Shown: positions 1 to 64,000 of the stretch, in pieces
How positions within the stretch are numbered: position 1 is the first letter of the stretch
Layout of the letters: each line of letters begins with the position of its first letter
DNA from: Trypanosoma brucei
Lineage: Eukaryota
Length of the DNA stretch: 64,000 nt
Assembly (NCBI GenBank): GCA_000002445.1
Contig: CP000069.1
Span: 32,001 to 96,000 of the forward strand
Direction: 5' to 3'
The notes under the pieces: generated by a model
What the model saw: the letters and a program-made list of their open reading frames with translations, nothing else
Database searches by the model: none
Told to the model about the DNA's origin: nothing
Made by a program: the position numbers and the translations under genes

Positions 1-318
1 GAAATCTTATGTCCTAAGGAAGAATATCAAAAGAGGGAAAATAGAAATCAGTAAGATTACACTTCCAGACAGTTGGATGCTATAACAAGTTCCCGACAAA
101 ACCAAAACAATGCTTAAAAAGCAATGAAGGCACGCCAAGGTAGCGAGAGACGACTCGTTTATAATGTCACTGTAAACTGCGAGCAAATGATAGAAAGGGA
201 CAACCGACACGCTGGTGGGAAATGGTGTCACACAAACACGTATATGTATGTCATGTGTGTCGTTGTTTTCTTTGCTACTGACATTTCATTACGAAATATG
301 GATCCGGCTTTGATGTAG
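1..318 (-). repeat. Inverted copy of the conserved ~320-bp GRESAG4 5' flank. It is one arm of an inverted repeat; the partner copies lie at 9385-9700 and 53365-53680.
   Basis: Reverse complement of 1-318 matches 9385-9700 almost base for base. ORF 7..231(-) equals ORF 9469..9693(+), and ORF 124..318(+) equals ORF 9352..9576(-). Similarity stops at ~318/9385. The mirrored start codon would lie ~10 nt before position 1. Confidence 0.85.
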
Positions 319-702
319 TTATCGCATGCTCCATGTGTGTTTGTGTGGCTGCATTTGCTCATGTATAGTTGACCCTTTTAGTTTATTTTGTTGAATCCCC
401 TTAACCACATAACCCTTTTCATCTGTCCTCCATTTTGTAGAGGATACTTGCTTTCATTTGATTCTCTGCTGTTGGCTCCCCATCTGCAGCAGCCACCACA
501 TGATTGTCACAAGACATGCGCTCACTTATCATTTGTTATTACGTGTAATATGGGACAATATTTTTACATATACCACGCTTTAGCAGCCTTTTCCACCGAT
601 GTGCAATTCATCGTTTGTGAATTAAAAAGGGCTCACAATGTGAAAGACGCGAATGGAACATGTGACACCTATGCCATAAGAAGGGATTACGGGCGAAATG
701 TC

Positions 703-3700
703 AGCAAACTAATGGCGACACATTTGTGCATACTCTTACGCTATAGTACACGACATGAACGAAGAAATAATAAAAATAAACGAAAACAAATGAGTGTGCG
801 CTCCATTTAGATGACGAACAAACACTATTTCAGATGGACACACGTATCTGCGTTTGAATATTTGAATAGGTTGGTAGCTTCTGTGTTTGACACTAACACA
901 TTACTCGCAATGTTATCTTAACATCGAATAGTATATGAGTAGAAACAAACTAAATCAGCAATTACGAAATTGCTGTTATCATTACCGTGACACAAATAGC
1001 GCTAATGTTTAGAAGGTAACAACAATGGCAAAGAAGGGATGGAACACAACTACAGATAACAATATCGGCTCAATGACCGCTAAGAAATAAACATAATCAG
1101 TGGTTATTCACATGTTTAACGTCAGTTCCCTTGAGCAGAGGGACAAGAACACTTGGACACATCGCACACTTGCAGTGGAGTACAGGCATGCACACAATGT
1201 GAAGCATTAGCGTTGGCATCTTGTATACCACAATGTATTGTAGGCTATTGAAGTTTCTTTATCTTTAAAGTTTCATGAGCTGCCCATAGTGCTGGCACCT
1301 GCTATTCTGTTCGACACAGGTAGCAGTGTCTCCCATTTTCTCCAACCTTAAATGAGTTAGATACCGCATAATCATACAGATCATGTGCATTCGCTTCCGG
1401 TGTTGGAGGTGAAAGATCACATCTGCTGCACACAATTGCGTGGATTGACCACAAGAAGAAAAAGATATAGCTTGAAGCCACGTGTGCTGCAGCGAAATGT
1501 GTTTGTGTAGGGATACTCCCTTATCGTATGGATTGCCTTCCTATTTCCAAACATAATATTCAATGCTGGTGAATCATATCGTTCCAGTGAAACGCCATTT
1601 TAGCTGTGCAATTTACCTTTTAATTTACCTTCTCCCTCCCTGTGAGTTTATTTCTAACGAGAGAACGAAATTAAACCAAATTCAGCAATGATACACAATA
1701 GTCACTGCATGGAGTGAGATTGTCAGGTAATGTTCTTGAGAGCAATTGCTTCTTATAACGGAGTTACATCAGAGAAAACTCACACATTCATTACAGTGCA
1801 GAGAAAATGAACTGTCAATGAAGTCATCACACTTCATAAATACACTAACATCACAGAAATCAATACAGAGCTCACGAAGAGTACTTCAATGGACTCATTT
1901 CATGTGTAAATTATGCTCAGGAGGGTGAACGCACGGATAAACAAATATGTGTCATACAGACGGTGCCAGATGTGAGGGAACTAACCCTGAGAAATACTGA
2001 TTGCGCCAATCCACAGTAATTAGTGATATATCCGACGGACTCATGGTCAGATGGGGAAAACAATAGCAGCTGATAAATATGGAAGGGATAAGCACATACA
2101 AAGCCTTAAATATATTTGCGAAGTTTGAATAAACAAACAAACATATCAACGCCAATGTGTTTCTTTGTTTTATTGTGCAAAATGTATCAACCGTGATGGT
2201 GGACTAGTGACAAACGTATGACTGTAAATACTGCACCGAACCAGTAGGTGCCAGCAATTCAGTGTATCCATATATTACCACTCACTACCACCTTAGAACC
2301 TAATAACTAAGAAAAGAAGATAGCAATATTCAACATTGTAGAGGATAGACAATGAACATAGAAGCAGAAAAGTTTTTTACACAAACCATTCCCATCAAAA
2401 ACCTACAACTGCGTTAACAGAAGCAAGTACTGCTGCAAACAGGTCAGGACTGTTTCCTTCTTATATTTTTCATGTCGATTACTTTCTTATCACACTATGT
2501 CGTTCACTCACTCCAATATAAGAAAACTGCGACTGCTGTTAAAGTGTCTATCATTTCACATACACAGACTCAATGGTTCGCCTACCACTTGCGCTGTGTT
2601 CCCCATAGTGGCAATCTGTCATTCACAGTAAAGAAAGTTGATCTCGCATTTTTTGTTTCGTATCGACATTGACATCTCGGGTATCCGTGCTATCTTCAAT
2701 TAATGTTATCGCACACATACAAAGACGTTATGTCACAAAGTTCCTTCAACACTAGCATGCATAAGTTCAAGGACGACAATGAGAGCGCCCTGTTATACAG
2801 ACTAGTAAGCTGGCGGTACCTAATGCTGTACATGCACTTAAGGCGAACAGCAATGACTTCGATGTGACTACCATCCCTGTGGTATTCTACAATGTCTCAG
2901 AGGGGAAATTGTGCCCATATTTCATTTACATCATACTCACACTAAAATTTAACAAGCAATTACGGCACTAGAATATCTTCCTCCATTTGTCATCTTTCAA
3001 CAAAACATAACAATCATACTAATTCATGTTCCGAAGAATAAGCATGCACTAACCAAAGTCAATGTAATACATATTGTTCCTGAAACGCACCGAGAAAAAA
3101 TTCCACCCCCTCAGTTCACAAAGTTTCAGTAGACGGAGCACGAATTGTCACACACCAGAAGGTCATGGTCAAATGTTTTGAACCACAGGCTGATCCCTGG
3201 CAGAGCCTGACAATGAGGGCGAACTTCCCTTTGAAGTTTACATTTCATTTTTTGAAAGACAAAATCGACTACGAGCGTGGGTAATCCTTTCATTGGATGT
3301 TACGACCGTTTAAAGAAAAGGTCATCTATACTCAATATCAGGATTTATATTCAACCTTTGGGGTTGTAACAAGTGCGCTCAGTTCGTTTCCCCGTAGCGT
3401 GGCCCCGATCAGACGATTTACCATCAAACTCAGGCGCCCCTTCATCAGAGGGCGGCATGGTGTCCCCTACGCGGGTTCATTCAGTTTCCCTTGTATAAAA
3501 TGAGGAGAATACTCAAGGAGTTTAACGCATCGACCCACCACATGTAAACCACTGCCGCGTATTCTTGATAGGCGCATGTGCATGTAACCTTGCTGTTCCA
3601 CAATTCACGCAGCAACAGAGCTAAGTGACACCATCTCGTATGAATGTCAATGCGACCCTGCGGCACGTGTAGCACAGCCTCACCAAAGTTTCCCTCGCTT

Positions 3701-6700
3701 AACACCCTTTTACCAGCATTTGGCTCTTGTGCCTCGGCGCCACGGTCACCATCCTGCCACAATTATTCGAACCTCTCTCAGCTCTATCTCCGGTGCCTCC
3801 ACTTAGTCCGATTGCAACTTTAGACATTGCAGCTTCAGTTAAAAGTTGTCCTTTGCTCTCTCTGTTTGGAGTCGTCCGTTCGGTCGGGAAAAGGTTTCAC
3901 AGTTCCGCGATCAGACCTAAGTCTTCCAGTTTCAAGAACCTACGTGAAAAATGCGCCCACAGCCCGTGAAGCGATGATCTGCCCCTCACGGTATTTTCCG
4001 CCCCACATTCTTTGCGTAGTGCCTTTTGGGTCTGTCATTGTAGTAAATGCGGGGAAGTTTCTTTGGACCTTATGCCTGGGTTGCGGAATTGCTTTTTCAT
4101 TTTGTCTTCGTGATCGCACTGCTTCTGTTTGGTAAGGGAAGGTCGCTCCATGCATTTTGTCGGGAGGCGCGCGAGTTGGTGCGCCCTCAGAATCGGCCTT
4201 ACCAACTGGAATGTTCCGTCGGCCTCGGCTTTCTCAAGTGTTTTTCTTTCCAGCTTGTCCGCCTCCGGCGTGCGGGTGTGAGCACCGACGAGTGTGCAAA
4301 ATTTCCCCTTCGTTGAGTGTCCATGTGAAGGCGGAACGCCACGGCATCGATGGTATGGCCGCTCACTGGCAGCGTCGGCTGGGGCGAGCGCGCAGAGGTA
4401 ATATCAAAGAGCGCTCCTTCCATTGAATGTACCGGTGGTACTGTGTGCGGTTACTGTGGTTGATTTGCGCTGTTTTAGGGGAGGTTAGGCATGGACGCTG
4501 GATTTTGTTTGGTGCCCGCCTCGAATAGCTCTGAGTGGCAACTTTCCTCCGCTCTGGACATGATAAAGGAATATTCGTGACCATACCGTTATTTTCGTAG
4601 CAATGTGGAGCTCGCCATCGGCACACACACCCGCGTGAGGGATGTATGCGTTCAACGTGGAGTGCTGTCTTAGCTAGCGAGCCATTTTTATCCGGCTCAT
4701 AAGATGCCAGTCTATTATTTTCCCAGTATGTCAAAAAGATGGCTTCCCATCGTAACTATAAAACATTGCTCATCACCTTTGGTGCGGTAGCGGATCGGCT
4801 ATTCGTGTCGTGTGCTGCAGGGTATTTGCGGAACGTAAACAATACTCGTTTGTCTCGATCAAGACAAAAGAGAGAAAATATGACAATGACGGTAACAACT
4901 ATCTGCTTGCGCCATCGATACGCTCTAACTCACTTTGGGGGTGCTGCCGAAGGGTGCAAAAACCAACGGACAATGTAATAAGGTTGTAAATAATGATTAG
5001 AAAGTGAATGACCCAGTTTGTCTAAAATCTTCTGATCGGCCAGCCTCGGTTCAAATTATTTTTTGAGCATTTGGTTAGGGACGGACGATGAACGTAAAGA
5101 CGTTTAGTGCTGGTATAAAGGTACTGTCTGTGTGTGCAATTGGAGCCATATTTTCGCTACGAGGCACTAAGCGCTACAAAACATCATGGTAAAATTTACA
5201 TCCAGTCCCTGCCATGATTGTGAATGAAGCAAGAATGATATTAATTTAGAACTTGGCAGTGATTTACTGGCGGCAGATCTAGCGCTAGTAATTGTGTTAC
5301 TCATGGAGGCAGCGTGTTGTACACCCGTTTTGAGGAAAGTAACTACTCAAGATAATCTCATCAAATATAGGTATCCGTACCAGAATGTTGGTGGGGCTAC
5401 GAATTGCGATGCCTTGCGATGCCCATAAAATAATTTCCCGTGACACTACCTGCAACATGAGGTGATACTCCACTGCTCTCTCCTCGTAAGGGAATTGAGT
5501 ACAAGTTACGGAGAGTTAGTGAGTAATCGCCTTTCGTGGATTGGATAGGTAACAGATGGGCAATACCCAATGTCACTCACGGGATGTTACTGAGATGCCA
5601 TTTATGTCTCTCGATGGCACCTGCCGTTTTGTTGTTGGAGGCTCATTTTTCTTTGCTACCTCGTTGGCAATATTCCCAATTTAATTACCTCCTTCATATG
5701 CCTATAATTTTTTTTACTCCGAGAGACATCCCAATAAATTACTGCCTCTCTTTTTCTTCGCGACAAGCAGCTACCGGCATGTATAAAAGTGAAGAAAGGA
5801 AGAAGCACAAAACAGATACGCATCCCACTTACTGACTTAGAAAGTCATATCGCTTTTTTTTTTTGACTGAAGGTAAGCACCATACACTCAACAGCGCACA
5901 TAATTTTACCGTATGATGCAGCAGTGGGAGAGAGACCAAAAATGGAAAAAGAAAGGAAAAAGCGGATAGGAACTAATGCAGGACATGCCGGCTAACTAAC
6001 AGTGAGAGGACTATTGTTGGAGATGCTATGTGGTTAACAGGACTGTGTGGTAATGTTTAATTCCGATACTTCGAGTTCCTGTGGTTTCTACACTTAGTGA
6101 AACAATGCTTTCTGCACTGCCAAATTCCTCTATGGTTTTAACGCAAGTGTGCTTCTTTGTTGTTATTGTTGCTCTTAAAATATGAGGATAAAGAGAAGAA
6201 ATCAATTGAAAAGTGAATATGCTGAGTCTGTGCGTTTGAGACAAGGTACGACTGTGCTGTAGGTTCTGTGGCACTAGCCTTCCCTCGCTGAGCACAAATA
6301 TTTGCAACCGATGGTTTCAGATGTGACTCGGGGGCTGGTGACCGTAGCTGCAGTTTGTCTCAATGTGTAGGCACTATTTTAAATGACTTATACCGAACAA
6401 GGGATATCTTAAGAAGGAACTAATAGTGTCATAGGGACACATTATTTTGTTGTTGCGCTTATACATTGAATGTTTTGTTGCCGACAATAAAGGCTAACAT
6501 TGTGGAAGCAGTTACTGTAAAGAGATATTGTCCCCAAACGTGTATGCGGCCACTATTGATACGAAATTTGTTTTTCCACTAAAAGGTAAAGGAGCACCTT
6601 ATTCCGATACCCTCAGCTCACCACCGCAAGGTCGATAAACTTTTTAAAAGGTACAGTAAAACACAATGGTCAAATAGGATTTGTGTGTGTTTCGGCCTTT

Positions 6701-9700
6701 GGCTTCTGTATAGTGTGTTTATGCATGAGCGCCTACATCTCTCTCCGTGTGTGTGATAACTGCTCTTGCGTGCAGTACCATCGTTTGGCTGCTTGTCCCG
6801 TAACTCCATTCCGTAATGATCCCTCTGGAGTATTGATAGTATTTCAAACACGGCGTTACATCACGCATACGTTTACATCACACGACCTCCCTATGCTCAT
6901 TCACTCTCTCTGACGATGGAAATAAAGGGGGTATCAGGTATCACTTTTTAGTTACAATTGTTTAAGGCGCTTGTGCGTCGTGCTGCGCTTTGAATTTTGT
7001 GATATTTGCGGTCGCCTATCGATTGAACTGTGGTATTGGGCTGACAGGTCTGAAGGCACTTTCTTGTCCCTCATATTGTTTCCGTTTACTCTTATACCCG
7101 GTTGGGAAATTAACCTCCTTTTGATACTGAACCACAGTAGGATATGTGCTTGGTCGATATGATGGTGTTCCCGTTTCCCCCCCCCCCCCTCTGATATTTC
7201 ATTTGGATTGTTCTAAAGTTTTGTTGTTTTTTTTTTTAATGCCATACACTGCGTGGATACTGCTTTTAATTGTCAAATAGAGCATTTTTCGTTACTTTAG
7301 GTTTCGGTTCTTTTTCCTTTTCGGAGGGAAGCCCGGGTTAGTCTCAGATTAATGGCTGTTGCTTGTACACCGTCACTGCATTGTACACGCTAATGTTGAG
7401 TCTTACATCATACCGTTTTTTGTCCTCTCTATTTTCTGGTGTTGTATCCGATGATTTGTATCACTATGTTTTCTCGGATAGAGCAGTTCCACGCTTCGAT
7501 TTTTGATGGCCCATGCTGCATCGATACATGAGTCTATTTACCTGACATTTTTGTTTCTTCCCGTTGGCACAGCTAGAACAGTGCTCCTTATTCCTTACTG
7601 ATTAAAGGAAGAGACTTACCGGTTTTGTATTTACCCCAGGAGGGAATGACACGTTTCTACTTCCAGTGCTCTTCATGCCATTCAACGCTACCAATATTAC
7701 CAAATTTTTTTTTCGTGGAAATATCCTTATGGTATCATTTTTTTCTTTCTGGGGTTATATGGACTTGTGATCTTGCTTACAAACCCCCCTTTTAACCATT
7801 ACTGGATAGCGAGGTTAGTGTTTCGCCACAAGCGCCTTAGGGGTTTCAGAGATCTACTGCTGATATTCCAAAGCGCTGAGAGTGACAGCAGCAAAGAAAT
7901 GAGCTAAAAAAGAATGAGATGAGTGATGTGACGGAGTTGCCATATTGAGTGATACCTCGCGAGTGTAGCGTTGCAGCTCCTTCACAATTGTTGGGTTTCT
8001 TCTGTTTGAAGCCACAGCAAGGCTCATATACTCTGCGGGATGCTTCTAGGTTGCAGACTTTGCTTCCCACAGGTTTCCTGTAAAATGTTTTGTGTCAGCC
8101 TTGGTAGTCTGACACATGTTTACGAATTCAACAGCGTGTATGTCGCTGCACACGACGACCGATTTTATATTTGGCGATGTGGGAGGGTTGATGTTGCACT
8201 AGGGATACGATATTGGCCAATTCACTAGCCATGCCAAGAGTCACACTGTACAGCATTGTTATCACACTTTTGCCGCACAAGAACGGGACTCGTCACAGCA
8301 CTCCAGTGGCGATTTAAACCATGCTATGTGTAATGGATAGCGGACACGTGATGATGAGCTTCCCTTCTCGCGACAGAAAAAACGAAAAAAAGACGGTTCT
8401 TGGTGACAACGTTGTATTCATCTGCTGTTGAGAATTATATGCGAAACATGCAGAGAACCACAACTTATGCGTATGTGCGTTGTTGCTGTGTTTTTTTTTT
8501 TTGCTTGTGTGCCACAGGCATGTGCGAACAGACGACACAGGTGATCAGCATCCAGTGAGGTACGTTATGCATGTGAAGGTAGCGCTTTCCCTTTGCCGGT
8601 AATCTGCACCGATGAACATACGCAGCGACCACCGCATGCGCCTCGTTCTGCTGCGCTTTCGCAACGATGGATCAGTTGTTGCAGGTGAAGAGAAACGTAA
8701 GGAGATTGCGTGTAGCGAAAATAAGTGTTACGGTTGCGCTCTCTGGGTGCCAACACCGTGGTAGTCAGCGAGGATATAATGGACGGATCCCGTCGTGTCG
8801 GACTGTAAGTTACCCTGCTCTGCAGAAGTGGGTTTGGGAGACGGCGACGGTTACTTATACGGTTTTGCCGCATTGGTCAGGATGTTTCATGAAGTTAGTT
8901 GACCGACGTATGAGTTGTGGGGATGCCGTATGCCAGTACAGATATTCTGCTGCTTTACACTGCTAACGTAAAATGGCGTCCAAAGAATGGAACCAGGCTC
9001 CATCTCACACAAACAGCTGCGGCACTGTTAGACCCACGGAATCGGGTACGATCCAACACATTTCGTACCTGCAGATCGCTGTAGGATGCCTCCGCCACAG
9101 ACAGTTATGACTCATCTACCCTGCAAACGCCTGATCATTCCATGGCTCTGCCGCTACGATATGGCGAGTTGCGCCTTATGTTTTTAGCAATGTGACAGAG
9201 ATGTCCATTAGGTAAGCAAGAAATTCTTTACTCCCATGAAATATGTGCTTGCAACGGAGAGTCTCAAACCCCATCACCATGGTAGGTACAAAGGGAATAA
9301 TAGGTGTCTGAATGCATGAATTTAGTGAATACACCACCAGGGCACTTACGACTATCGTTCTGCCCTCAACTCAAACGAAAGCCACATCAAAGCCGGATCC
9401 ATATTTCGTAATGAAATGTCAGTAGCAAAGAAAACAACGACACACATGACATACATATACGTGTTTGTGTGACACCATTTCCCACCAGCGTGTCGGTTGT
9501 CCCTTTCTATCATTTGCTCGCAATTTACAGTGACATTATAAACGAGTCGTCTCTCGCTACCTTGGCGTGCCTTCATTGCTTTTTAAGCATTGTTTTGGTT
9601 TTGTCGGGAACTTGTTATAGCATCCAACTGTCTGGAAGTGTAATCTTACTGATTTCTATTTTCCCTCTTTTGATATTCTTCCTTAGGACATAAGATTTCA

Positions 9701-12700
9701 CACACGAAAAGTGTCACACATTCCCGAAAATATGAGTTGGCAGGAAGGTGGTGGAAGAGGATGTGTGTACCCCCATGGAAACTGCAGGCGGAACCTTACC
9801 GCAAGGAGCCCTGCAAGGCGTTACAGCAAGTACAAGCACTCACCTGTCATTACTGCTATATCACTGCTACACTTGTTGCCTTTGCTACTCATGTGGATGC
9901 CACCTGTGTGCGCGGAAGCGAGTAATGTGACGGTAAAAGTGCTATCCATGATGTACAGCCTCGGTTTCACCACTCCTGAAGTTAACGCCATTAATGCCGG
10001 CTTTAACGCATCACTGAGTGCCCACAGCTGGAAGACGGGCTCTAATGCGACAATATCTGTCATCCGTCCCCCATCACCCAATGCGACAGTTGAGGAGATA
10101 TTTCAGCATGGAATGAATCAAAGTGAAGGGAAGTTATTAGTTGTATTCGGGCCCCTGGGTACTAATCACGTCGCGTGGGTCAGTGATAAACTAAAGGAAC
10201 ATGATCTTGTTGCCCTAGCTCCCGTTGCGTACTCCAGTGAGGTCCGTGGTTGGAACCCTCACCTCTATTTCATAAGTGTCGAACCCAATGCTGAACTCCT
10301 CGCCCTCATTCGTTATGCTGTTGTTTACCTCCGTGTCCCACGAATAGGTATGATGCACGTGAAGAGCAGCACCGCCAGTATGGGACCGTATGAGTTTACT
10401 CTGCAGATATTGGAAATGATGGGTCGCGAGCTGTGCGGAATGTTCGTTGTGAAGGAGAGTGAAAATCAAAATATCTCTGAGGATGATTTGAACACCAGGT
10501 GGAGACAATTTGTTGCTACGCGCCCGCAGGCTATATTGCTGTTTTCTTCCCTGGGTAATACAGCAAAGTGGTTCATCAAGAAGGTAGCACAGGACAACCG
10601 CACTGCCAATGCGTATCTTCTTTCTACTTCCTTGCAGCAACATTTTTTGATCAAGATGTGGCGTGAGGCATTGGCGTTAGCTAATCGTACATTTACTCCT
10701 GGACAGCTGATCACAACTGGAACAGTGCCGCTCGCTAACGATACTCGGTTTTCACTGATTCGGCACTTCGAGCATGACATGGACAACTACCTCAGTACAA
10801 ACACTGACTGGAACTTTTTTAAGAACCCCGATCACTACCTTGAGGACGACAACGCAGGTGAGATGATGGTGTATGGGTGGCTTGCAGGAGAAGTTCTCTT
10901 CCAGGCTCTGAACAACGCTCCACAACTGACGAACCGTACGTCATTCAGGGAATCTCTATACAAGCAGCGTCGCTACGTGATTGATGACCTTGTGGTTGGT
11001 GACTTTGGTGGTGAGTGCGATGAAGCCGTTGCATTACAGGGTGCCATGTGCAAATGCAATCAAGGTGGCAGTATGGTATATATGAAGAGTATAGTGAATG
11101 GCTTCCGACCAGCGCCTTTGTGGGAAGGACATCTAACGTGGGGTGTATCAGAGTGCTCGAGTGCCAATGTACATGTGGGTGCGCCATTGAGTGGCCTCTT
11201 TTTGCTTCTCGCAGATAATAAAATTGCATTACGTGCGAGCAGGAAGTGGTTCCTTGGTGCCGAGGTTCATGGCAAGGAAGCGGAGAATATTGACAACAGA
11301 ATATTTTTCCATCCCCTAACAGTATCTTCAGAGAATGTGACGCAATCCCTTGAGCAAGTACAGGATAACAGGGATGTATCTGCAGTATTTGGTATCATGC
11401 CTGGAGGGCTTCTGGATCGAAAAGATTTAGTGTTCATCAGTCCTATGACACTTCGACCCCGCATGAAACTGTTTAGGAGAAACGTAATACACTTACTGCC
11501 TGTCCTTGCGCAGCAATTTTATGTGCTTGCTGTGTATCTCTCCAACGCTTCTTCCAGAGGAGTAAATGCATTCATACGTAGTGAGCAAGCAGGGGAGATC
11601 AGTAGCCTGCTGTACAGGTCATTGGTTACGTTTGGTGTGTCGCTTGATTCCAGTAAGACACTTGGTGATGGTGACCCGATGGCGTCGTATCTCTCGGCTA
11701 ATAAAGATGTGTTTACTATTGGACTCACTCTCACTGACGTTGCTGCGGTTGCGCGGCACCTTCAGGCACACCGCAGGGCACGTGTATTCATTCCATTCAA
11801 TGACCTTGCAATGTACTACGATGAGTTTGTGGCTGCGTTTAATGCGAGTAAAGAGTCTGTCGCTAGCTCAGAGCGGCTCCTATTCGCGACGAGTTTTCCA
11901 CACTGGGCGGAGAAGGACACGAAATCAGATGTGGTTGCGAGTTTCCATCGCATTGTGAATGAATCGCATTGGGATCCACTAACGTTCTTAGGTTTTGTTA
12001 CCACTCGGCTGCTTCAAGTGATTCTCCCGAATATGAAGAAAGTGAATGCAGAGCTGCTGGCAGACCGCATTTACACGGAGTCCAACATCAAAGTGGATGA
12101 CATGCGATTTGGACCCTTCAATGATGTGGAATGTGTTTCTGGTACGAGTGTTTCGGCAAATGAGTGTGCCTCAAACTTTGGAGCCACAAACATTTCTGTA
12201 TGGTCGATGGCGCGTGTGCTGAATTCAAGTGTGCCCATATTGCAACGCGGCATGACACCGTCTATGGACTATGTTATTCCGCAAGAGGGTCAACTCACAC
12301 AGTCACAGATAGCTGGAATAATTTCTGGGTGTGTATCCGCCTTGTTATTATTTATTGCCCTAGGTGGGCTCCTACGCATCACCCTGCGGAATGCCCGTGA
12401 TAACAATCTTGCACCCAAGGAACCAACGGACCCTGTGACACTAATATTTACTGACATTGAGAGCAGCACTGCGTTGTGGGCTGCACACCCTGAGCTGATG
12501 CCTGATGCCGTCGCCGCGCATCATCGTATGGTCCGTTCATTGATTGCGAGGTATGACTGCTACGAAGTCAAAACTGTAGGGGATTCGTTCATGATAGCGA
12601 GTAAGAGTCCTTTCGCTGCCGTCCAACTCGCACAGGAACTACAGCTGCGTTTCTTGCATCATGACTGGGGAACAAATGCAGTTGATGATTCTTACCAGCA

Positions 12701-26953: not shown

Positions 26954-27023
26954 CGCCAGGGACAAAGAAATATAGCCGCCCTCACCAAGGAAATAATGAG
27001 CGACGGTACGTAACTTGTACTAT

Positions 27024-30330: not shown

Positions 30331-30390
30331 NNNNNNNNNNNNNNNNNNNNNNNNNNNNNNNNNNNNNNNNNNNNNNNNNNNNNNNNNNNN
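30331..30390. other. Assembly/scaffold gap of 60 N.
   Basis: A literal run of n. The flanking sequence changes abruptly from the unique edge segment to satellite. Confidence 0.99.
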
Positions 30391-53600: not shown

Positions 53601-56600
53601 CTGTCTGGAAGTGTAATCTTACTGATTTCTATTTTCCCTCTTTTGATATTCTTCCTTAGGACATAAGATTTCACACACGAAAAGTGTCACACATTACCGA
53701 AAATATGTGCTGGCAGGAAGGTGGTGGAAGAGGATGTGTGTACCCTCATGGAAACTGCAGGCGGAACCTTACCGCAAGGAGCCCTGCAAGGCGTTACAGC
53801 AAGTACAAGCACTCACCTGTCATTACTGCTATGTCACTGCTACACTTGTTGCCTTTGCTACTCATGTGGATGCCACCTGTGTGCGCGGATGACAGTGCTG
53901 TGACGGTAAAAGTGCTATCCATGATGTATAATCCGGATTATACAGATAATGAAATTAACGCCCTGAATGCCGGTTTTGACGCATCACTGAGTGCCCACAG
54001 CTGGAAGACGGGCTCTAATGCGACAATATCTGTCATCCGTCCCCCATCACCCAATGCGACAATCGAGGACATATTTCAGCAGGGAATGAATCAAAGTGAA
54101 GACAAGTTATTAGTTGTATTCGGTTCCCTGGGTACTGATCACGTCTCGTGGGTCCGTGATAAACTAAACGAAAATGATCTTGTTGGCCTCGCTCCCGTTG
54201 CGTACTCCAGTGAGGTCCGTGGTTGGAACCCTCACCTTTATTTCATAAGTGTCGAACCCAATGCTGAACTCCTCGCCCTCATTCGTTATGCTGTTGTTTA
54301 CCTCCGTGTCCCACGAATAGGTATGATGCACGTGAAGAGCAGCACCGCCAGTATGGGACCGTATGAGTTTGCTGTGCAGATATTGGAAATGATGGGTCGC
54401 GAGCTGTGCGGAATGTTCGTTGTGAAGGAGAGTGAGAATCAAAATATCTCTGAGGATGATTTGAACGTCAGGTGGAGACAATTTGTTGCTACGCGCCCAC
54501 AGGCTATATTGTTGTTTTCATCCCTGGTGGATGGCAGCATCACGTGGTTCATCAAGAAGGTAGCACAGGACAACCGCACTGCCAATGCGTATCTTCTTTC
54601 TACTTCACTACAGCAGGGTCCTCTTATCAACATGTGGCGTGAGGCATTGGCGTTAGCTAATCGTACATTTACTCCTGGACAGCTAATCACAACTGGAACA
54701 GTGCCGCTCGCTAACGATACTCGGTTCTCACTGATTCGGCACTTCCAGCGTGATGTGAACAACTACCTGAAGACAAAAAGTGACTGGAAGGGCTTTGCGA
54801 AACCCGATCACTACCTTGAGGACGACAACGCAGGTGAGATGATGGTGTATGGGTGGCTTGCGGGAGAAGTTCTCTTCCAGGCTCTGAACAACGCTCCACA
54901 ACTGACGAACCGTACGTCATTCAGGGAATCTCTGTACAAGCAGCGTCGCTACGTGATTGATGACCTTGTGGTTGGTGACTTTGGTGGTGAGTGCGATGAG
55001 GCCGTTGCATTACAGGGTGCCATGTGTGAATGCAATCAAGGTGGCAACTTGGTATATATGAAGAGTATAGTGAATGGCTTCCGACCAGCGCCTTTGAGGG
55101 AAGGGTTCCTGACGTGGGGTGTATCAGAGTGCTCGAGTGCCAATGTGCAAGTAAGCGCGCCATTGAGTGGCCTGTTTTTGCTTCTCGCAGACAATGAAGT
55201 TGCATTACGTGCGAGCAGGAAGTGGTTCCTTGGTGCCGAAGCTCATAGTAAGAAGGTGGATGATATTGACAATAGAATATTTTTCCATCCCCTAACAGTA
55301 TCTTCAGAGAATGTGACGCAATCCCTTGAGCAAGTACGGGATAACAGGGATGTATCTGCAGTATTTGGTATCATGCCTGGAGGGCTTCTGGATCGAAAAG
55401 ATTTAATGTTCATCAGTCCTATGGCACTTGGTCCCCGAATGAACTGGTTTAGGAGAAACGTGATACACATACTACCACTTCTTGCGCAGCAACTTTATGT
55501 GCTTGCTGTGTATCTCTCCAACACTTCTTCCAGGGGAGTAAATGCATTCATACGTAGTGCCCACGCCATGAAGGTGGAGGATGCACTACACAAGTCATTG
55601 GACACGTTTGGTGTGCCGCTTGATTCCAGCAAGACACTTGGTGATGGTGACCCGATAGCGTCATATCTCTCGGGTGATGGAGATGTGTTTACTATTGGAC
55701 TCACTCTCACTGACGTTGCTGTGGTTGCGCGGCACCTTCAGACCCACCGCAGGGCACGTGTATTCATTCCATTCAATGACCTTGCAATGTACTACGATGA
55801 GTTTGTGGTTGCGTTTAATGCGAGTAAAGAGTCTATTGCTAGCTCAGAGCGGCTCCTATTCGCGACGAGTTTTCCACACTGGGCGGAGAAGGACACGAAA
55901 TCAGATGTGGTTGCGAGTTTCCATCGCATTGTGAATGAATCGCATTGGGATCCACTAACGTTCTTAGGTTTTGTTACCACTCGGCTGCTTCAAGTGATTC
56001 TCCCGAATATGAAGAAAGTGAATGCAGAGCTGCTGGCAGACCGCATTTACACGGAGTCCAACATCAAAGTGGATGACATGCGATTTGGACCCTTCAGTGA
56101 TGTGGAATGTGTTTCTGGTACGAGTGTTTCGGCAAATGAGTGTGCCTCAAACTTTGGAGCCACAAACATTTCTGTATGGTCGATGGCGCGTGTGCTGAAT
56201 TCAAGTGTGCCCATATTGCAACGCGGCATGACACCGTCTATGGATTATGCTATTTTGCAGGAGGGTCAACTCACACGGTCACAGATAGCCGGAATAATAG
56301 CCGGGTGCGTAGTCGGATTGATATTGTTTATTGTCCTTGGTGTGCTCCTACGCATCACCCTGCGGAATGCTCGTGATAACAATCTTGCGCCCAAGGAACA
56401 AACTGACCCCGTGACACTAATATTTACTGACATTGAGAGCAGCACTGCGTTGTGGGCTGCACACCCTGAGCTGATGCCTGATGCCGTTGCGACACATCAC
56501 TATTTGATTCGTTCACTGATTGGGAGGTATAAGTGCTACGAAGTCAAAACTGTTGGGGATTCGTTCATGATAGCGAGTAAGAGTCCTTTCGCTGCCGTCC

Positions 56601-57085
56601 AACTCGCACAGGAACTACAGCTGCGTTTCTTGCATCATGACTGGGGAACAAATGCACTTGATGAGTCCTACTGGGAGTTCGAGCAGCAGCGTGCGGAGGA
56701 GGACGAGAAGTACACACCGCCAACTGCACGGTTGGATCCTGAAGTGTACAGTCGTTTGTGGAATGGCCTGCGTGTACGTGTTGGAATCCACACCGGGTTG
56801 TGCGACATCCGACACGATGAAGTGACGAAGGGATATGACTACTATGGGCGGACTCCAAACATGGCAGCAAGGACAGAGAGTGTAGCAAATGGTGGTCAGG
56901 TGCTGATGACGCATGAGGTTTACCTGTCACTGTCAGCTGAGGAGCGTGAGCAAATTGATGTCACTGCACTTGGTGATGTTGCACTTCGCGGCGTGAATGA
57001 TCCTGTGGAAATGTACCAGTTGAATGCCGTGCCTGGCCGCAACTTTGCTGCATTACGGCTGGATCGCGAATTCTTTGATGAAGAC
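44680..57085 (+). repeat. Segmental duplication, copy 2: spacer plus GRESAG4-C.
   Basis: See copy 1. The same set of spurious short ORFs recurs (47274/3297, 48340/4363, 50005/6026, 52534/8565 and others). Confidence 0.9.
53621..53659 (+). promoter_or_regulatory. Polypyrimidine tract + AG. Predicted SL trans-splice acceptor for GRESAG4-C.
   Basis: Same sequence and position relative to the ATG (53705) as upstream of copy A. Confidence 0.55.
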
Positions 57086-57469
57086 GAGGATGGCACGACA
57101 ACCTCCACAAGCGACCACAGTTCTTCACGTGCCGAGCTGAGTGAATCAGCACAATCGATATTGAACTCACTGCAGTCTGTTTTCCGAACTTTTAAAGCAG
57201 CGCAACGGGGGAATCTTCTGGCGTCGCTTTGTGAGCGTTGGCGTGTGCCTCTTCCCCGTGAAGCCGCATTCGAGTGGGATGACGCCTACTGTGAGGAAGT
57301 GGTGCGTCGCATTGCAGTTAAGGTTGGGCGTGTCGCTGACCGTAGCGCTCAAAGTGGAAGCAGTGAAGCTTCTGTGAGTACTGAAGAGGGCTCAATCATA
57401 ATTGTTCCATTCGTTGGTTCACATTTCAGGGAAGGCCACTTTGGGTGTCCGCTTCCGTCGTTACATTAG
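53705..57469 (+). CDS. GRESAG4: Receptor-type adenylate cyclase, GRESAG4 family, copy C. Its ectodomain is ~90% identical to copy A; its catalytic domain and C-terminal tail are divergent.
   Basis: ORF-track 53684..57469 starts at GTG; the first ATG is 53705. Same architecture as A. Catalytic-domain substitutions relative to A and B include ATHHYLIRSLIGRYKCYEVK, MTHEVYLSLS and LGDVALRGVNDPVE. Confidence 0.9.
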   Translation: MCWQEGGGRGCVYPHGNCRRNLTARSPARRYSKYKHSPVITAMSLLHLLPLLLMWMPPVCADDSAVTVKVLSMMYNPDYTDNEINALNAGFDASLSAHSWKTGSNATISVIRPPSPNATIEDIFQQGMNQSEDKLLVVFGSLGTDHVSWVRDKLNENDLVGLAPVAYSSEVRGWNPHLYFISVEPNAELLALIRYAVVYLRVPRIGMMHVKSSTASMGPYEFAVQILEMMGRELCGMFVVKESENQNISEDDLNVRWRQFVATRPQAILLFSSLVDGSITWFIKKVAQDNRTANAYLLSTSLQQGPLINMWREALALANRTFTPGQLITTGTVPLANDTRFSLIRHFQRDVNNYLKTKSDWKGFAKPDHYLEDDNAGEMMVYGWLAGEVLFQALNNAPQLTNRTSFRESLYKQRRYVIDDLVVGDFGGECDEAVALQGAMCECNQGGNLVYMKSIVNGFRPAPLREGFLTWGVSECSSANVQVSAPLSGLFLLLADNEVALRASRKWFLGAEAHSKKVDDIDNRIFFHPLTVSSENVTQSLEQVRDNRDVSAVFGIMPGGLLDRKDLMFISPMALGPRMNWFRRNVIHILPLLAQQLYVLAVYLSNTSSRGVNAFIRSAHAMKVEDALHKSLDTFGVPLDSSKTLGDGDPIASYLSGDGDVFTIGLTLTDVAVVARHLQTHRRARVFIPFNDLAMYYDEFVVAFNASKESIASSERLLFATSFPHWAEKDTKSDVVASFHRIVNESHWDPLTFLGFVTTRLLQVILPNMKKVNAELLADRIYTESNIKVDDMRFGPFSDVECVSGTSVSANECASNFGATNISVWSMARVLNSSVPILQRGMTPSMDYAILQEGQLTRSQIAGIIAGCVVGLILFIVLGVLLRITLRNARDNNLAPKEQTDPVTLIFTDIESSTALWAAHPELMPDAVATHHYLIRSLIGRYKCYEVKTVGDSFMIASKSPFAAVQLAQELQLRFLHHDWGTNALDESYWEFEQQRAEEDEKYTPPTARLDPEVYSRLWNGLRVRVGIHTGLCDIRHDEVTKGYDYYGRTPNMAARTESVANGGQVLMTHEVYLSLSAEEREQIDVTALGDVALRGVNDPVEMYQLNAVPGRNFAALRLDREFFDEDEDGTTTSTSDHSSSRAELSESAQSILNSLQSVFRTFKAAQRGNLLASLCERWRVPLPREAAFEWDDAYCEEVVRRIAVKVGRVADRSAQSGSSEASVSTEEGSIIIVPFVGSHFREGHFGCPLPSLH

Positions 57470-60400: not shown

Positions 60401-61989
60401 AAATCAATATGTTATGTTAAGGATTTTAGTTACGGCAAGGAATTGCTGAAAGCGTGTGCTTCACCTGCCCCACACCCTTTCGCAACTTCTGGGCATAACC
60501 GTCCCGCCCGAAGAAATGCCGTCTGCGGGGTTGTCTGTCGATGCAACGTCGCCCCAGCTGACCACGATATTTCCCTCCAGCAATGTTTTGTTCACGAGGC
60601 GCGTTCCACTTGCCGAAACATCGAAATGTGTATTTCATTCTTTTCATGACGTGCTTGGCCGTGGCGTGTTACCAACGCATACGTAAAGCATTTGGGAGCG
60701 GGTTTCCTTCAAGGGTTTGTAATTTCAAGTCTACTGCTCTCGCCTCCACCTGCGAAACACAAAAATGTGGTTGTGCCCACTGGTCCTCCTGGGGCTCATA
60801 GCTTCCCACTAACCCTAAACGGTATTGCTTCCCAATCTTTCATTGAGGTGCCTGCGAATAATTTGGATGGTGTTGGTAAATAACTCGGTGAATTGACATA
60901 CTCGCTGTTAAGAAATATATTAAGCCACTGTTGTTTTCTCTTCATGGAATGCGATGAAAGGTGAGTCGAATCAGTTTCCTCCAATAATCATGTATTGAGC
61001 TTTAAAGGTCGTCGGCGCACCATCTTCAAAAAGAGATAATGTTGTTGGAATAGAGAATTTCCTCGTACGTCTGCCGTGTACATCATGCGGGATATTATGT
61101 TCTTCAACTGTTTTCTCGTTTTTGTTTTTTCCATCGAAGAGGCCTTCATGAGTTTTCCTACTCTCATTTTTCTATGGAAGACCAAGTGGCAACATATTTT
61201 TCTCTTGTGATAAATGTGAACCCATATGAAATTGTATTCTGCGAAGAGTTTGCTCTTCCCCACCATGGCACTGTATTGTACCATATGCTCCCTTATCATT
61301 ACACTCCAACTCCTTGATGACTTTCTGTAATACACTTTATGCGAATGTTATAAGTTCGCACATGTTTTTAGCGATGCGGTGCGGCACATTTTCGTTAAAC
61401 CACTTCTGTGTCTCTTTCCGGGGCCTGAGTATAATCGTGTGTAGGATGTCCTGAACCATATTCATGACCCATTGAAAGATGGATTGGTTCCACAAGTTTT
61501 CCACTCTTCGTTTGGCAACCGGAGACATGCGCAAATATACGCTACAAGTTCCACCTGAAAGAAAGAAACGGAGCCTTTGAGTCAAAGATGAATGCTGCAG
61601 CTTTATTGCAAACTGCGCCCAAATAACGGGACACGTGCTCTAATGAAGCCATGGTTTCATAATTATCATGGTTATTTATCAGCTTTGGCCGTGTGATAAA
61701 ACATCTACTCGTGACTTGGTTTCCCCTTCATCACTGTAAAGCTGGCACTACCCATCCCATGATGAGTCTCCAAAATAAATGCATCTACTTTGGAAACAGT
61801 CAATTTCGGTTATTGTTCCCAATCTTCCTACGCTTCGGGGCTTTACGCGTAATTTGCTACATTTCATCATATCGCCGTCGAGACTGGATGTTAGGTCTCT
61901 CTCCCTAACCCAATGCAGTGATAACCTAGTCGCATCTATCTGTTGTACCGGAAAGTTCTGCTGCTGCTGAGTCTCCGAAGTCACTTTAA

Positions 61990-64000
61990 TTTAATGAGCA
62001 AATAACAAAATGCTGAGCCTCTGGAATGGAGACACGTGTCCCGCTACTTTCCTCGTGGGCTGTGAAATCATCTACGAGAAAGCTGCCCATTCATCAAATA
62101 TCTTTACATTAGTGCTGTTAAATTTCCTGAACCGTTTCATACGTCAGCCCGCAACTCGAGATGGCGAGCGGTGTTGCGAGGAAATCCCTTGGTGTTTACA
62201 TGCTTTCACATTTCTGCTAAAATGCGGGATTCCAAATCGTTCTCTATTGCGACTACTGCTGTTGCGTGAAGGTGAAAGTTCTCCCCTTTTTGTTGAAGGC
62301 GCCGTCATTCCGTAAGGTTTTAGTGTCTTTTTGACAAATTGACTGCTGAGTGCCGTTATTCTTTCCCACACACTCAAAAACTTTTTGATATCCCCCAACT
62401 GCGATAACCGCGTGCCTCACACTGCCCTGCACGGATCAGTATTGAAAGTTATTGTGAGAGCTCCCTAATCCACAATGATGGCATCCTTGTCATGAAGATG
62501 TGCGATAAGATTTTCCTTCCGCAGTAAAGCTATATCCCTTTCCACCAACTGGTAGTAATCCAAACCAAATGCATGACTGCTCGATTTCTTACGTTGTCCA
62601 GTGAATCGCATTTTGGATGGATTTCCCATTTCTGCATTGGCTGGGTTTGTTTTACTGGAGATTCCGCGGCTTTTCTCTGTAGAACTGAAAGATGCATATG
62701 AACTGGCGTTGCTCTGGCCGCCATCATTTACAATAAAGTTCCTGTATGCTGCGTTGTAATGTTTTTTGCGAATTGCATACTCACAATAAAGAGAAGACAG
62801 GGCCTAACCTATTCTAACTCTAAATTGGGCTTTCTCGAGAAATCGCAGGACCTTCTCGGTATCGGAGCCACATGTTCTCATGTTGGCTGCGTCCAAATGC
62901 ATTTTGCGATGTGATTTGTCTCTGAAACCCACAGCACAGTAACCGGATCATGACTCAGAGGTTTTACTATAATGATCATGACGTTTACCAGTGTCTTTGT
63001 TGGCTGGAGAGATTTAGAGTACGTTCCTTTATTTATTGTTTTCATGGGATCTAAAACCACATCCAATTGCCCTCTTTCTATTCCGTAACCCACGCACTTG
63101 AGGGTTTCGGATTTTTATATTCATGGGTATGGATTCCAATACTCTCTCGGAACTCAGCTTTCATTGTTTCCGTGGCCAAATCCCACCTTTCGGCTGCTAA
63201 AGTATTTTCCTTTCCTTGGCATAAAATGTAGAACCATAATAATTTAACTTTCCACAGCTATAGCGTCAAACTCTACTAACCAGGAGAATGGATTTTTTTT
63301 CTCTCTCAAATACGGTTGGTAAAAAGCATCGGGTTGTACATCCTTCCTCCCATTTACATACTTCCTTCTGTGAAGCCAACTGTATTATTGTGCGGTGCCG
63401 TTTGTAAATGGGCAATCGTTTTCCAATGATTCATCTCAGGTATTGATGATTCGTTTATCTCTTCTAATCTATCTATATACGAATGCACATGATCCAACTC
63501 TTCTCTCAATTGAAAAATTCCCCTGCCTTATTCTACAATTCTCAACATTAATTCCTATCAACTGAGTTTGAATGCGCCAGCGCCTGTCACCCATTCGTGC
63601 CGTATCATTTCATACTTCTGGAATAGAACTGATTTATTTTACTCAAGCACCATTCATTTATTTCAAAACGTCACTCGGGCTTCTTCAAAAGACCGTAAAA
63701 AATACAGCGCTTTGGGGCATATTGAAGGACACCAATGAATTCCGTAGGTAAATGAAGTTCACTTCCTTATTTTCAAAGAATACTTGAAACTCCCCATTTT
63801 CCAATTTCAACATACCGTCTGCGTGCGACGTGAAGTTTCTTAGCGACGAACCATTTCCAATTGAAAATGGGGTTTGTTCCCTCCTTTATACAAAAGCTTT
63901 TGTTTATGTCAAGGCCTTTGTCCATTCTACATCCAGAATGGTCTGTGGAGTTGCCGTTGACATATCTGTGAAGCTTACATTCGCAAGAAAAATTTAAGTC
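61990..64000 (-). repeat. Inverted copy of the GRESAG4-A 3'-flank segment (13961-15960). It runs off the window end.
   Basis: See feature 13961-15960. Position 64000 corresponds to 13961. Projecting the alignment places the 3' end of a minus-strand GRESAG4 ~420 bp beyond the window. Confidence 0.85.

What the first reader, a model, noticed from the sequence alone, without database searches (positions are those of the whole stretch)
1..64000. GRESAG4 genes alternate in orientation, separated by large duplicated ORF-poor spacers; further copies are implied just outside both window ends
Two head-to-head pairs are visible. The inverted 5'-flank arm at 1-318 implies a minus-strand gene just upstream of the window, paired with A(+) across a spacer of about 9.4 kb. 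B(-) and C(+) are paired across a similar ~9.8-kb spacer. Tail-to-tail arrangements follow (A ... B; C ... an inferred minus copy beyond 64000). The arrangement probably arose by inverted duplications around the centromere-like region. The ~9-kb head-to-head spacers are unusually long for trypanosome intergenic regions. They would behave as divergent strand-switch (transcription start) regions. The resulting gene-by-gene strand alternation is unusual for kinetoplastid polycistronic organisation.
Basis: inference. Interest (0 to 1): 0.55.

Follow-up and report, generated by a model that had tools for sequence, protein, structure and literature searches.

The report
Alternating adenylate-cyclase genes beside a trypanosome centromere
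Beside the chromosome 6 centromere of Trypanosoma brucei, adenylate-cyclase genes do point in alternating directions across two copies of a 9-kb non-coding stretch that is transcribed outward both ways, but the layout is already visible in published data, arose mostly by a direct rather than inverted duplication, and one predicted gene copy is not there.

Summary
The window is T. brucei TREU927 chromosome 6, positions 32,001-96,000. It holds the centromeric ~29-bp AT-rich array, which contains an assembly gap.

**Confirmed**
- Three intact GRESAG4 genes: A(+) Tb927.6.180, B(-) probably Tb927.6.190, C(+) Tb927.6.200.
- Two ORF-free head-to-head spacers of about 9.8-9.9 kb between start codons.
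- A minus-strand GRESAG4 (probably Tb927.6.170) starting about 33 nt left of the window.

**Not confirmed**
- No GRESAG4 lies within 3.5 kb beyond the right end. A near-identical contig shows a degenerate leucine-rich-repeat pseudogene on the minus strand instead.

**Origin**
- The two spacers belong to one 12.4-kb direct duplication (spacer plus gene, 96.6% identical) placed on both sides of the centromere.
- B is an old paralogue (47% amino-acid identity), not an inverted copy of A or C.
- Only the 4.5-kb gene unit, a 2.1-kb tail segment and a gene-converted cyclase-domain patch are inverted.

**Function**
- Published RNA-seq places spliced, polyadenylated non-coding transcripts running outward on both strands from a roughly 4-kb GC-rich core in each spacer.
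- The divergent strand-switch reading is therefore supported.
- However, these two sites are absent from the published list of Pol II transcription units.
- The region downstream of C is the published convergent unit CTU18, a strong siRNA source.

The finding is real but largely ordinary and already documented.

The parts
1..324 (-). 5' flank (polypyrimidine tract, splice acceptor, start of 5' UTR) of a GRESAG4 gene lying just left of the window, probably Tb927.6.170 / XP_845148. It is the inverted arm of 9376-9699.
   Evidence: 98.8% complementary to 9376-9699; the arm contains the polyY tract and AG; in T. b. equiperdum locus L003 a full GRESAG4 starts 33 nt beyond window position 1.
156..2306 (-). 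Three processed non-coding transcripts in the left spacer: Tb6.NT.5 (156-740), Tb6.NT.6 (881-1653), Tb6.NT.7 (1766-2306).
   Evidence: Kolev 2010 Table S7. All three 5' ends follow polyY plus AG in the window.
2307..6585 (.). Core of the left spacer with no listed transcript. It holds a GC-rich island (about 3500-4500, GC 0.50-0.54) and the switch in G+T strand bias. Inferred bidirectional Pol II start zone.
   Evidence: G+T fraction 0.44-0.47 to the left, 0.52-0.61 to the right. (skews). Position lies between Tb6.NT.7 and Tb6.NT.8. Initiation here is inferred, not shown.
6586..9544 (+). Two processed non-coding transcripts in the left spacer: Tb6.NT.8 (6586-7701) and Tb6.NT.9 (7752-9544).
   Evidence: Kolev 2010 Table S7. 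The NT8 5' end follows AG; NT9 is not directly preceded by AG.
706..13120 (+). Left copy of the 12.4-kb direct segmental duplication (spacer plus most of the gene).
   Evidence: 96.6% over 12,431 nt to 44682-57096; spacer part about 98.5% identical, coding part about 93%.
9732..13538 (+). GRESAG4 gene A, probably Tb927.6.180, a receptor-type adenylate cyclase.
   Evidence: Pfam domains; 100% identical to XP_845149. Tb927.6.180 is a GRESAG4 flanking the array (Obado Table 1; PMC8648117).
13906..15966 (+). 2.1-kb non-coding segment X downstream of A. It overlaps transcript Tb6.NT.10 (13925-14720) and is repeated in inverted orientation at 61984-64000 and beyond.
   Evidence: 98% identity. for Tb6.NT.10.
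18350..21591 (-). Truncated LSU rRNA fragment (3' 57% of the Rfam model), interrupted by a RIME element at 19404-19916 (+).
   Evidence: RF02543, 972 bits, model positions 1460-3399. for the RIME halves and A14 tail.
21700..26961 (-). ingi non-LTR retrotransposon, copy 1.
   Evidence: RVT_1, RNase_H, zf-C2H2; 96.9% to copy 2. RIME-like ends.
27058..32433 (.). Centromeric AT-rich ~29-bp tandem array of chromosome 6, with a 60-N scaffold gap at 30331-30390.
   Evidence: TRF. (gap). Echeverry 2012 Table 1 coordinates 59066..64433 equal window position plus 32,000. Obado 2007 Table 1.
32741..37725 (-). ingi non-LTR retrotransposon, copy 2, in the same orientation as copy 1.
40196..43831 (-). GRESAG4 gene B, probably Tb927.6.190, a divergent paralogue. 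A gene-converted patch at 40590-41257 covers the cyclase domain.
   Evidence: 47-48% amino-acid identity to A and C; the patch is 91-94% identical at nucleotide level, with third-codon-position identity 0.89-0.93 against 0.3-0.4 elsewhere; 100% identical to a protein on independent contig L004.
43832..53704 (.). Right head-to-head spacer. From 44682 onward it is a direct copy of the left spacer. It carries Tb6.NT.11-13 on the minus strand at 44028-46282. The G+T switch and GC island lie at about 47500-48500.
   Evidence: Contigs L004 and L001 confirm the B-to-spacer and spacer-to-C junctions.
53705..57469 (+). GRESAG4 gene C = Tb927.6.200.
   Evidence: Kolev Table S13: poly(A) site at 90158 with a 689-nt 3' UTR puts the stop at window 57469; 99.9% identical to the protein on contig L001.
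56300..64000 (.). Published convergent transcription unit Tb927_06_v4_CTU18 (chromosome 88,300-97,500; it continues to about window 65,500). It includes Tb6.NT.14 (58326-61218, +) and the inverted copy of X (61984-64000).
   Evidence: Tschudi 2012 Additional file 3: 9,102 siRNA reads, DCL2-dependent, fourth highest of 49 units..

Best explanation
The window is the pericentromeric region of T. brucei TREU927 chromosome 6 (32,001-96,000). The GRESAG4 adenylate-cyclase genes here sit in very short, often single-gene, RNA polymerase II units of alternating direction.

The two 9-10 kb 'spacers' are two copies of one divergent strand-switch region. Transcription leaves a roughly 4-kb GC-rich core in both directions. 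It first yields spliced, polyadenylated non-coding RNAs and then the flanking GRESAG4 mRNA.

The second copy arose when a 12.4-kb block (spacer plus its downstream gene) was duplicated in direct orientation to the other side of the centromere, next to an unrelated old paralogue (B). The left pair (.170/.180) is an inverted duplication of the 4.5-kb gene unit only.

Later gene conversion among paralogues reshuffled the coding regions. This is why the coding sequence is more diverged than the spacer, and why the cyclase domain of B is nearly identical to that of A and C.

Where units meet tail to tail (downstream of C), overlapping transcription produces DCL2-dependent siRNAs.

- Shown: gene identities, repeat geometry, transcript positions, and the published siRNA locus.
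- Inferred: initiation inside the core, and the order of duplication events.
For: - **Identity and coordinates:**; the array coordinates in Echeverry 2012 match with an exact 32,000 offset; the Tb927.6.200 poly(A) site and 3' UTR length reproduce C's stop codon exactly.
- **Geometry:** the direct 12.4-kb duplication, the 324-nt arms, the inverted 2.1-kb X segment and the 670-nt patch.
- **Independent contigs:** L004 matches window 51290-31298 at 99.69% in a single alignment. L001 matches 51404-64000 at 99.54%. T. b. equiperdum L003 matches window 1-9953 at 98.1% with a full GRESAG4 on the far side.
- **Divergent transcription:** Kolev 2010 Table S7 transcripts NT5-7(-), NT8-9(+) and NT11-13(-). 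Eight of ten 5' ends abut polyY plus AG in the window. Strand composition switches at the spacer centre.
- **Non-coding nature:**
- **Gene conversion:** spacer copies 98.5% identical against about 93% for the coding sequence, with dS 0.09-0.2. Third-position identity between B and A is 0.9 only in the cyclase domain.
- **Convergence and siRNAs:** CTU18.
Against: - Kolev 2010 Table S14 is said to list every divergent unit with 5'-triphosphate tag enrichment. On chromosome 6 it starts at Tb927.6.300/.310 and omits the .170/.180 and .190/.200 pairs. This may reflect multi-mapping in duplicated sequence, or a real lack of strong initiation.
- No histone-variant or Pol II ChIP data could be examined.
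- The plus-strand transcripts are listed only for the left spacer copy.
- A scaffold gap lies between the two halves, and the true array is about 55 kb.
- The sequence beyond the right end comes from a contaminant contig of unknown strain filed under Schistosoma mansoni.
Confidence: 0.75

Rival explanations
1. Palindromic origin: the alternating orientation arose by inverted duplication of the flanks around the centromere, so that the left and right sides are mirror images.
For: Some inverted segments exist. These are the 324-nt arms, the 4.5-kb gene unit in the .170/.180 pair, segment X at 13906-15966 against 61984-64053, and the 670-nt cyclase patch between B and A/C.
Against: The dominant repeat across the centromere is direct: 706-13120 matches 44682-57096. 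Both ingi copies and both array halves share one orientation. B, the gene facing A across the centromere, is 47% identical in protein and has no nucleotide similarity outside the converted patch.
Confidence: 0.07
2. Assembly artefact: the two 12.4-kb copies, or the strand alternation, result from mis-joined or collapsed repeats or alleles around an unclosed centromere gap.
For: A 60-N gap lies inside the array. The array is really about 55 kb against 5.4 kb assembled. The left contig end at 30063-30330 repeats the flank at 32432-32700 (family D12).
Against: Two independent shotgun contigs reproduce array, ingi2, B(-), spacer and then C(+) with its tail, to within a 113-nt join. A T. b. equiperdum chromosome-scale assembly reproduces GRESAG4(-), spacer, A(+). 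The copies differ by 1.5% in the spacer and about 7% in the coding sequence, and they have different left junctions (1-705 against 43910-44681). They are therefore not collinear alleles. The published transcripts and CTU18 fit this layout.
Confidence: 0.08
3. The spacers are inert decayed DNA (old genes or retroelements) without promoter activity. The listed transcripts are processing products of read-through or antisense transcription entering from neighbouring units.
For: The two spacers are not in the published list of Pol II start regions. Transcript abundances are low, 0.27-2.9 in the abundance column of Table S7.
Against: Transcripts on each side run outward, and the strand-composition switch sits between them. 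Read-through would have to cross a full antisense GRESAG4 gene on each side. No relic of ingi, LRRP or GRESAG4 coding sequence is detectable in the spacer. The spacer copies are better conserved than the adjacent coding sequence.
Confidence: 0.1

Closest known systems
Broad divergent strand-switch regions (Pol II transcription start regions) of T. brucei (Siegel 2009; Kolev 2010; Wedel 2017; PMC9508842)
   Same: Head-to-head flanking genes, several kb without ORFs, processed non-coding transcripts running outward on both strands, and a strand-composition (G+T) switch at the centre.
   Different: They drive units of one gene, or very few genes, rather than tens of genes. They are present as two 98.5%-identical copies within a segmental duplication. 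They are not in Kolev's Table S14. Chromatin marks were not examined.
T. brucei centromeric domains with AT-rich arrays, ingi/DIRE elements and rRNA genes (Obado 2007; Echeverry 2012)
   Same: A ~29-30-bp AT-rich array of the chromosome 1/6 class, flanking ingi elements, an adjacent rRNA fragment, and a position between oppositely oriented gene clusters. The coordinates equal the published chromosome 6 array.
   Different: Nothing substantive. This is that locus, and the GRESAG4 and spacer duplication flanking it was not discussed in those papers.
Convergent transcription units as siRNA sources (Tschudi 2012, CTU18 and CTU19)
   Same: The tail-to-tail region after gene C is CTU18 itself (chromosome 6, 88.3-97.5 kb).
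   Different: CTU18 also contains an inverted copy of a transcribed segment found downstream of A (segment X, transcript NT10). This could add dsRNA formed in trans. That idea was not tested.
Tandem GRESAG4 arrays evolving by gene conversion (Jackson 2010, for example Tb927.6.760-800)
   Same: Same gene family, with segmental duplication and clear gene-conversion tracts.
   Different: The copies here are arranged head-to-head and tail-to-tail with their own start regions, rather than head-to-tail within one polycistron.

Membership tests
GRESAG4 receptor-type adenylate cyclase | Extracellular periplasmic-binding-protein-like domains, one transmembrane segment and a class III cyclase catalytic domain. 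| tested here: met
   PF25495, PF25493 and PF00211 in A, B and C with E-values from 1e-43 to 1e-133. Hydrophobic segments lie before the cyclase domain in the translations.
GRESAG4 receptor-type adenylate cyclase | Identity to annotated T. brucei GRESAG4 genes. | tested here: met
   A is 100% identical to XP_845149. C equals Tb927.6.200 by its poly(A) site and 3' UTR length. B's nearest TREU927 relatives in the search are 55-56% identical GRESAG4 genes.
T. brucei divergent strand-switch / Pol II start region | Flanking genes head-to-head on opposite strands. | tested here: met
   for the left pair. for B/C.
T. brucei divergent strand-switch / Pol II start region | Transcripts diverging from the region on both strands. 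| tested here: met
   Kolev Table S7 coordinates mapped to the window and checked against polyY plus AG. Plus-strand transcripts are listed only for the left copy.
T. brucei divergent strand-switch / Pol II start region | 5'-triphosphate RNA tag enrichment (listed in Kolev 2010 Table S14). | tested here: inconclusive
   Neither pair is in Table S14. Duplicated sequence may have been excluded by unique-mapping rules.
T. brucei divergent strand-switch / Pol II start region | H2A.Z, H2B.V, H4K10ac, BDF3 or RPB9 enrichment. | not testable with these tools
   No ChIP-seq tracks were available.
T. brucei divergent strand-switch / Pol II start region | G+T-rich sense strand on each side (GT-rich promoter context). 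| tested here: met
   plus-strand G+T fraction is 0.44-0.47 left of about 4,000 and 0.52-0.61 to the right. The same switch occurs at about 48,000. This is a weak, compositional criterion.
T. brucei centromeric domain (chromosome 1/6 class) | Single AT-rich ~30-bp tandem array flanked by ingi/DIRE elements and rRNA sequence. | tested here: met
   The coordinates equal the published chromosome 6 array.
T. brucei centromeric domain (chromosome 1/6 class) | Topoisomerase-II cleavage or kinetochore protein binding. | not testable with these tools
   Published for this locus (Obado 2007) but not re-examined here.
Centromere-spanning palindrome (inverted duplication) | Large arms on opposite sides of the centromere in inverted orientation. 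| tested here: not met
   The 12.4-kb repeat, the ingi pair and the array halves are all direct. Only 0.3-2.1 kb pieces are inverted.

The most novel reading that the evidence does not exclude
The 9-kb spacer is a portable bidirectional promoter cassette that is copied together with a GRESAG4 gene. Pericentromeric cyclase genes would then each have their own monocistronic Pol II unit, opening a route to gene-specific transcriptional control that trypanosomes are thought to lack. The resulting tail-to-tail collisions, such as CTU18 with its inverted transcribed segment X, would supply siRNAs that help define pericentromeric chromatin on chromosomes whose ~30-bp arrays make no siRNAs themselves.
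Probability: 0.1. Interest if true: 0.6.

Novelty: new member of a known kind. Interest (0 to 1): 0.25.

Why it matters
The practical value is mainly annotation.
- It adds two likely Pol II start regions that are missing from the published list, probably because they are duplicated.
- It shows that the pericentromeric GRESAG4 copies on chromosome 6 form single-gene units, as seen next to centromeres on chromosomes 1, 4 and 7.
- It corrects the origin story from a palindrome to a direct segmental duplication followed by gene conversion.
- It exposes T. brucei contamination in the S. mansoni RefSeq assembly.

It would matter more only if these cassettes give individual cyclase genes their own transcriptional control.

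Tried and rejected
- **Spacers as rDNA units.** I tested this because rRNA genes adjoin this centromere. Rfam finds only one truncated LSU fragment at 18350-21591 and nothing in the spacers. No tRNAs were found.
- **Spacers as decayed genes or retroelements.** tblastn with the window's ingi ORFs, the GRESAG4 proteins and a T. b. gambiense LRR protein found nothing in the spacers.
- **Direct retrieval of TREU927 flanks.** Exact-protein look-up failed for A, C, P0001 and P0002. I used near-identical contigs from other records instead.
- **T. b. gambiense locus L002.** This turned out to be a different GRESAG4 locus, near the HpHbR and procyclin genes, without the spacer.
- **Published long inverted repeats.** The siRNA-producing inverted repeats of Tschudi 2012 include none on chromosome 6.
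- **Literature on this arrangement.** Searches for a discussion of this specific GRESAG4 layout found none.
Full report
**What the window is**

The three long ORFs at 9732-13538 (+, A), 40196-43831 (-, B) and 53705-57469 (+, C) encode receptor-type adenylate cyclases. Each carries the trypanosome-specific periplasmic-binding-protein-like domains and a class III cyclase domain.

A is 100% identical to T. brucei brucei TREU927 XP_845149, which lies on the 1,618,915-bp chromosome 6 record.

A 5.4-kb AT-rich tandem array with a 29-nt period lies at 27058-32433. Two ingi non-LTR retrotransposons in the same orientation flank it, at 21700-26961 and 32741-37725 (both minus strand). A truncated LSU rRNA fragment lies at 18350-21591 on the minus strand.

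Echeverry et al. 2012 place the chromosome 6 centromeric array at 59066..64433 in Tb927 v4. This equals the TRF coordinates plus exactly 32,000. The window is therefore Tb927_06 positions 32,001-96,000.

Obado et al. 2007 place the array between Tb927.6.180 and Tb927.6.190 and note an unclosed gap. The window carries that gap as 60 Ns at 30331-30390. Restriction mapping puts the true array at about 55 kb.

Kolev et al. 2010 Table S13 gives Tb927.6.200 a poly(A) site at 90158 with a 689-nt 3' UTR. That places its stop codon at window 57469, which is C's stop. My gene assignments are:
- A = Tb927.6.180 (inferred)
- B = Tb927.6.190 (inferred)
- C = Tb927.6.200 (shown)

**Checking the observation**

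The 324-nt inverted arm is real. Positions 1-324 match 9376-9699 at 98.8% and 53345-53672 at 93.9%. The arm contains the polypyrimidine tract and splice-acceptor AG that precede A's 45-nt 5' UTR, and the window edge cuts it 13 nt past the mirrored AG.

Three lines of evidence put a minus-strand GRESAG4 immediately to the left:
- The arm is truncated by the window edge.
- XP_845148 is 95.7% identical to A and is numbered directly before it. Kolev Table S6 groups Tb927.6.170 with four near-identical GRESAG4 genes.
- In the T. b. equiperdum chromosome-scale assembly, window 1-9953 aligns in one piece at 98.1%, and a complete 1,272-aa GRESAG4 starts 33 nt beyond window position 1 on the opposite strand. 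A second, degenerate copy follows it on the same strand.

The right-hand prediction fails. Contig L001 matches window 51404-64000 at 99.54% and runs 3.47 kb further. This contig is filed under Schistosoma mansoni but is clearly T. brucei DNA. In it:
- The inverted copy of A's downstream segment ends 53 nt past the window end, which corresponds to a point 368 nt short of A's stop codon.
- tblastn with A, B and C finds nothing beyond that point.
- The next ORFs are frameshifted leucine-rich-repeat fragments on the minus strand.

A minus-strand unit does converge there, but its first element is not a GRESAG4.

**How the arrangement arose**

The two spacers are not independent. Positions 706-13120 and 44682-57096 form one direct repeat of 12.4 kb at 96.6% identity. 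It comprises the spacer plus most of the downstream gene. The left junctions differ: 1-705 against 43910-44681.

B shares only 47-48% amino-acid identity with A and C. It has no nucleotide similarity to them except a 670-nt tract in the cyclase domain. In that tract, third-codon-position identity is 0.89-0.93, against 0.3-0.4 elsewhere. This is a gene-conversion signature rather than mere purifying selection.

The spacer copies are about 98.5% identical. The A and C coding regions are only about 93% identical, with dS of 0.09-0.2, and identity drops at about 9500, near the 9376 start of the 4.5-kb GRESAG4 gene unit. The coding regions were therefore overwritten by other paralogues after the block duplicated.

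The ingi elements and both halves of the array are in direct orientation. Only three kinds of segment are inverted:
- the gene unit in the .170/.180 pair
- a 2.1-kb non-coding segment X (13906-15966 against 61984-64053)
- the conversion tract in the cyclase domain

The 'inverted duplications around the centromere' model is not supported.

**Is the assembly sound?**

Contig L004 aligns to window 51290-31298 in a single 20,028-column alignment at 99.69%. It links the array, ingi2, B and 7.4 kb of spacer. L001 picks up 113 nt later and carries the rest of the spacer, C and its tail. The equiperdum locus supports the left pair.

The remaining weak point is the scaffold gap inside the array. The relative orientation of the two halves is supported only by the common orientation of the repeat units and the ingi elements.

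**What the spacers do**

They are non-coding:
- The longest ORF is 140 aa.
- Stop-codon density is random-like in all six frames.
- There are no Rfam families or tRNAs.
- There are no relics of ingi, LRRP or GRESAG4 coding sequence.

They are, however, transcribed. Kolev 2010 Table S7 lists novel spliced, polyadenylated transcripts that map as follows in window coordinates:

| Transcript | Window position | Strand |
|---|---|---|
| NT5 | 156-740 | - |
| NT6 | 881-1653 | - |
| NT7 | 1766-2306 | - |
| NT8 | 6586-7701 | + |
| NT9 | 7752-9544 | + |
| NT11-13 | 44028-46282 | - |

I verified the mapping. Eight of ten listed 5' ends fall immediately after a polypyrimidine tract and AG in the window sequence.

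Transcription therefore runs outward from a core of about 4.3 kb with no listed transcript. That core contains a GC-rich island and the point where G+T strand bias flips. This is the anatomy of a broad divergent strand-switch region, a recognised class (>4 kb; PMC9508842).

There is an important caveat. Kolev's Table S14 of Pol II units defined by 5'-triphosphate tags starts on chromosome 6 at Tb927.6.300(-)/.310(+), which is itself another head-to-head GRESAG4 pair. It does not list the two pairs in this window. Initiation inside the core is therefore inferred, not shown.

**Tail-to-tail regions**

Chromosome 6 positions 88,300-97,500 (window 56,300-65,500) are Tschudi et al.'s convergent transcription unit CTU18. 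It yields 9,102 Argonaute-bound small RNAs from both strands, falling to 0.28% of wild type without DCL2. It ranks fourth of 49 such units. CTU19, at 115-122 kb, shows that the alternation continues beyond the window.

**Comparison with what is known, and novelty**

Everything here belongs to known categories:
- a mapped centromere
- GRESAG4 paralogues shaped by duplication and gene conversion
- divergent and convergent strand-switch regions
- centromere-adjacent single-gene units, also listed for chromosomes 1, 4 and 7

What I did not find described is that the two chromosome 6 spacers are copies of one start-region cassette that was duplicated along with a gene. They are also missing from the published list of start sites. 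I rate the finding as a new member of a known kind, with low interest.

Noticed in passing
window 31298-64000; loci L001 and L004: Two scaffolds of the Schistosoma mansoni RefSeq assembly GCF_000237925.1 are T. brucei chromosome 6 pericentromeric DNA. NW_017386306.1 (20,024 bp) is 99.69% identical to the window, and NW_017386323.1 (17,444 bp) is 99.54% identical. Their 'S. mansoni' proteins, such as Smp_112590, are GRESAG4 genes B and C. This is contamination that has spread into protein databases.
   Followed up: partly
window 19404-19916 (+), inside 18350-21591 (-): A RIME element interrupts the truncated LSU rRNA fragment. It consists of the two ingi end-halves joined together, with an A14 tail. 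ingi copy 1 truncates the same rRNA fragment at about 21,600-21,700.
   Followed up: partly
window 30063-30330 and 32432-32700: The non-repeat sequence just left of the 60-N gap duplicates, at about 94%, the flank just right of the array. The unit of array plus flank, and perhaps ingi, may therefore be repeated within the real roughly 55-kb centromere.
   Followed up: no
window 706-9500 vs 44682-53480; 9732-13120 vs 53705-57096: The non-coding spacer copies (about 98.5% identical) are much better conserved than the adjacent coding sequences (about 93%, dS 0.09-0.2). The break lies at about 9500, near the start of the 4.5-kb gene unit. The coding sequences appear to have been replaced by gene conversion after the block duplicated.
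   Followed up: partly
window 40590-41257 vs 12396-13063 and 56371-57039: There is a sharp gene-conversion tract covering the cyclase catalytic domain between otherwise saturated paralogues. Third-codon-position identity is 0.89-0.93 inside the tract and 0.3-0.4 outside.
   Followed up: yes
window 13906-15966 and 61984-64000; CTU18: Segment X is transcribed on the plus strand downstream of A (Tb6.NT.10). It recurs inverted inside CTU18 downstream of C. Plus-strand read-through there would make RNA complementary to NT10, which could explain why CTU18 is among the top siRNA-producing convergent units.
   Followed up: no
outside the window (literature tables): Combining Kolev 2010 Table S14 with Obado 2007 Table 1 shows single-gene Pol II units directly abutting the centromeric arrays. 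The cases are chromosome 1 (Tb927.1.3670), chromosome 4 (Tb927.4.3750) and chromosome 7 (Tb927.7.6850 and .6860), as with Tb927.6.180 here. This may be a recurring feature of T. brucei centromere borders.
   Followed up: no
protein database hits for B and C: Genes B and C have GeneDB identifiers and detectable transcripts. C is listed at 6.28 RNAs per cell in Kolev Table S6. Yet the protein searches returned no TREU927 entry close to B or C. The only near-identical entries (100% and 99.9%) are the contaminant 'S. mansoni' proteins.
   Followed up: no
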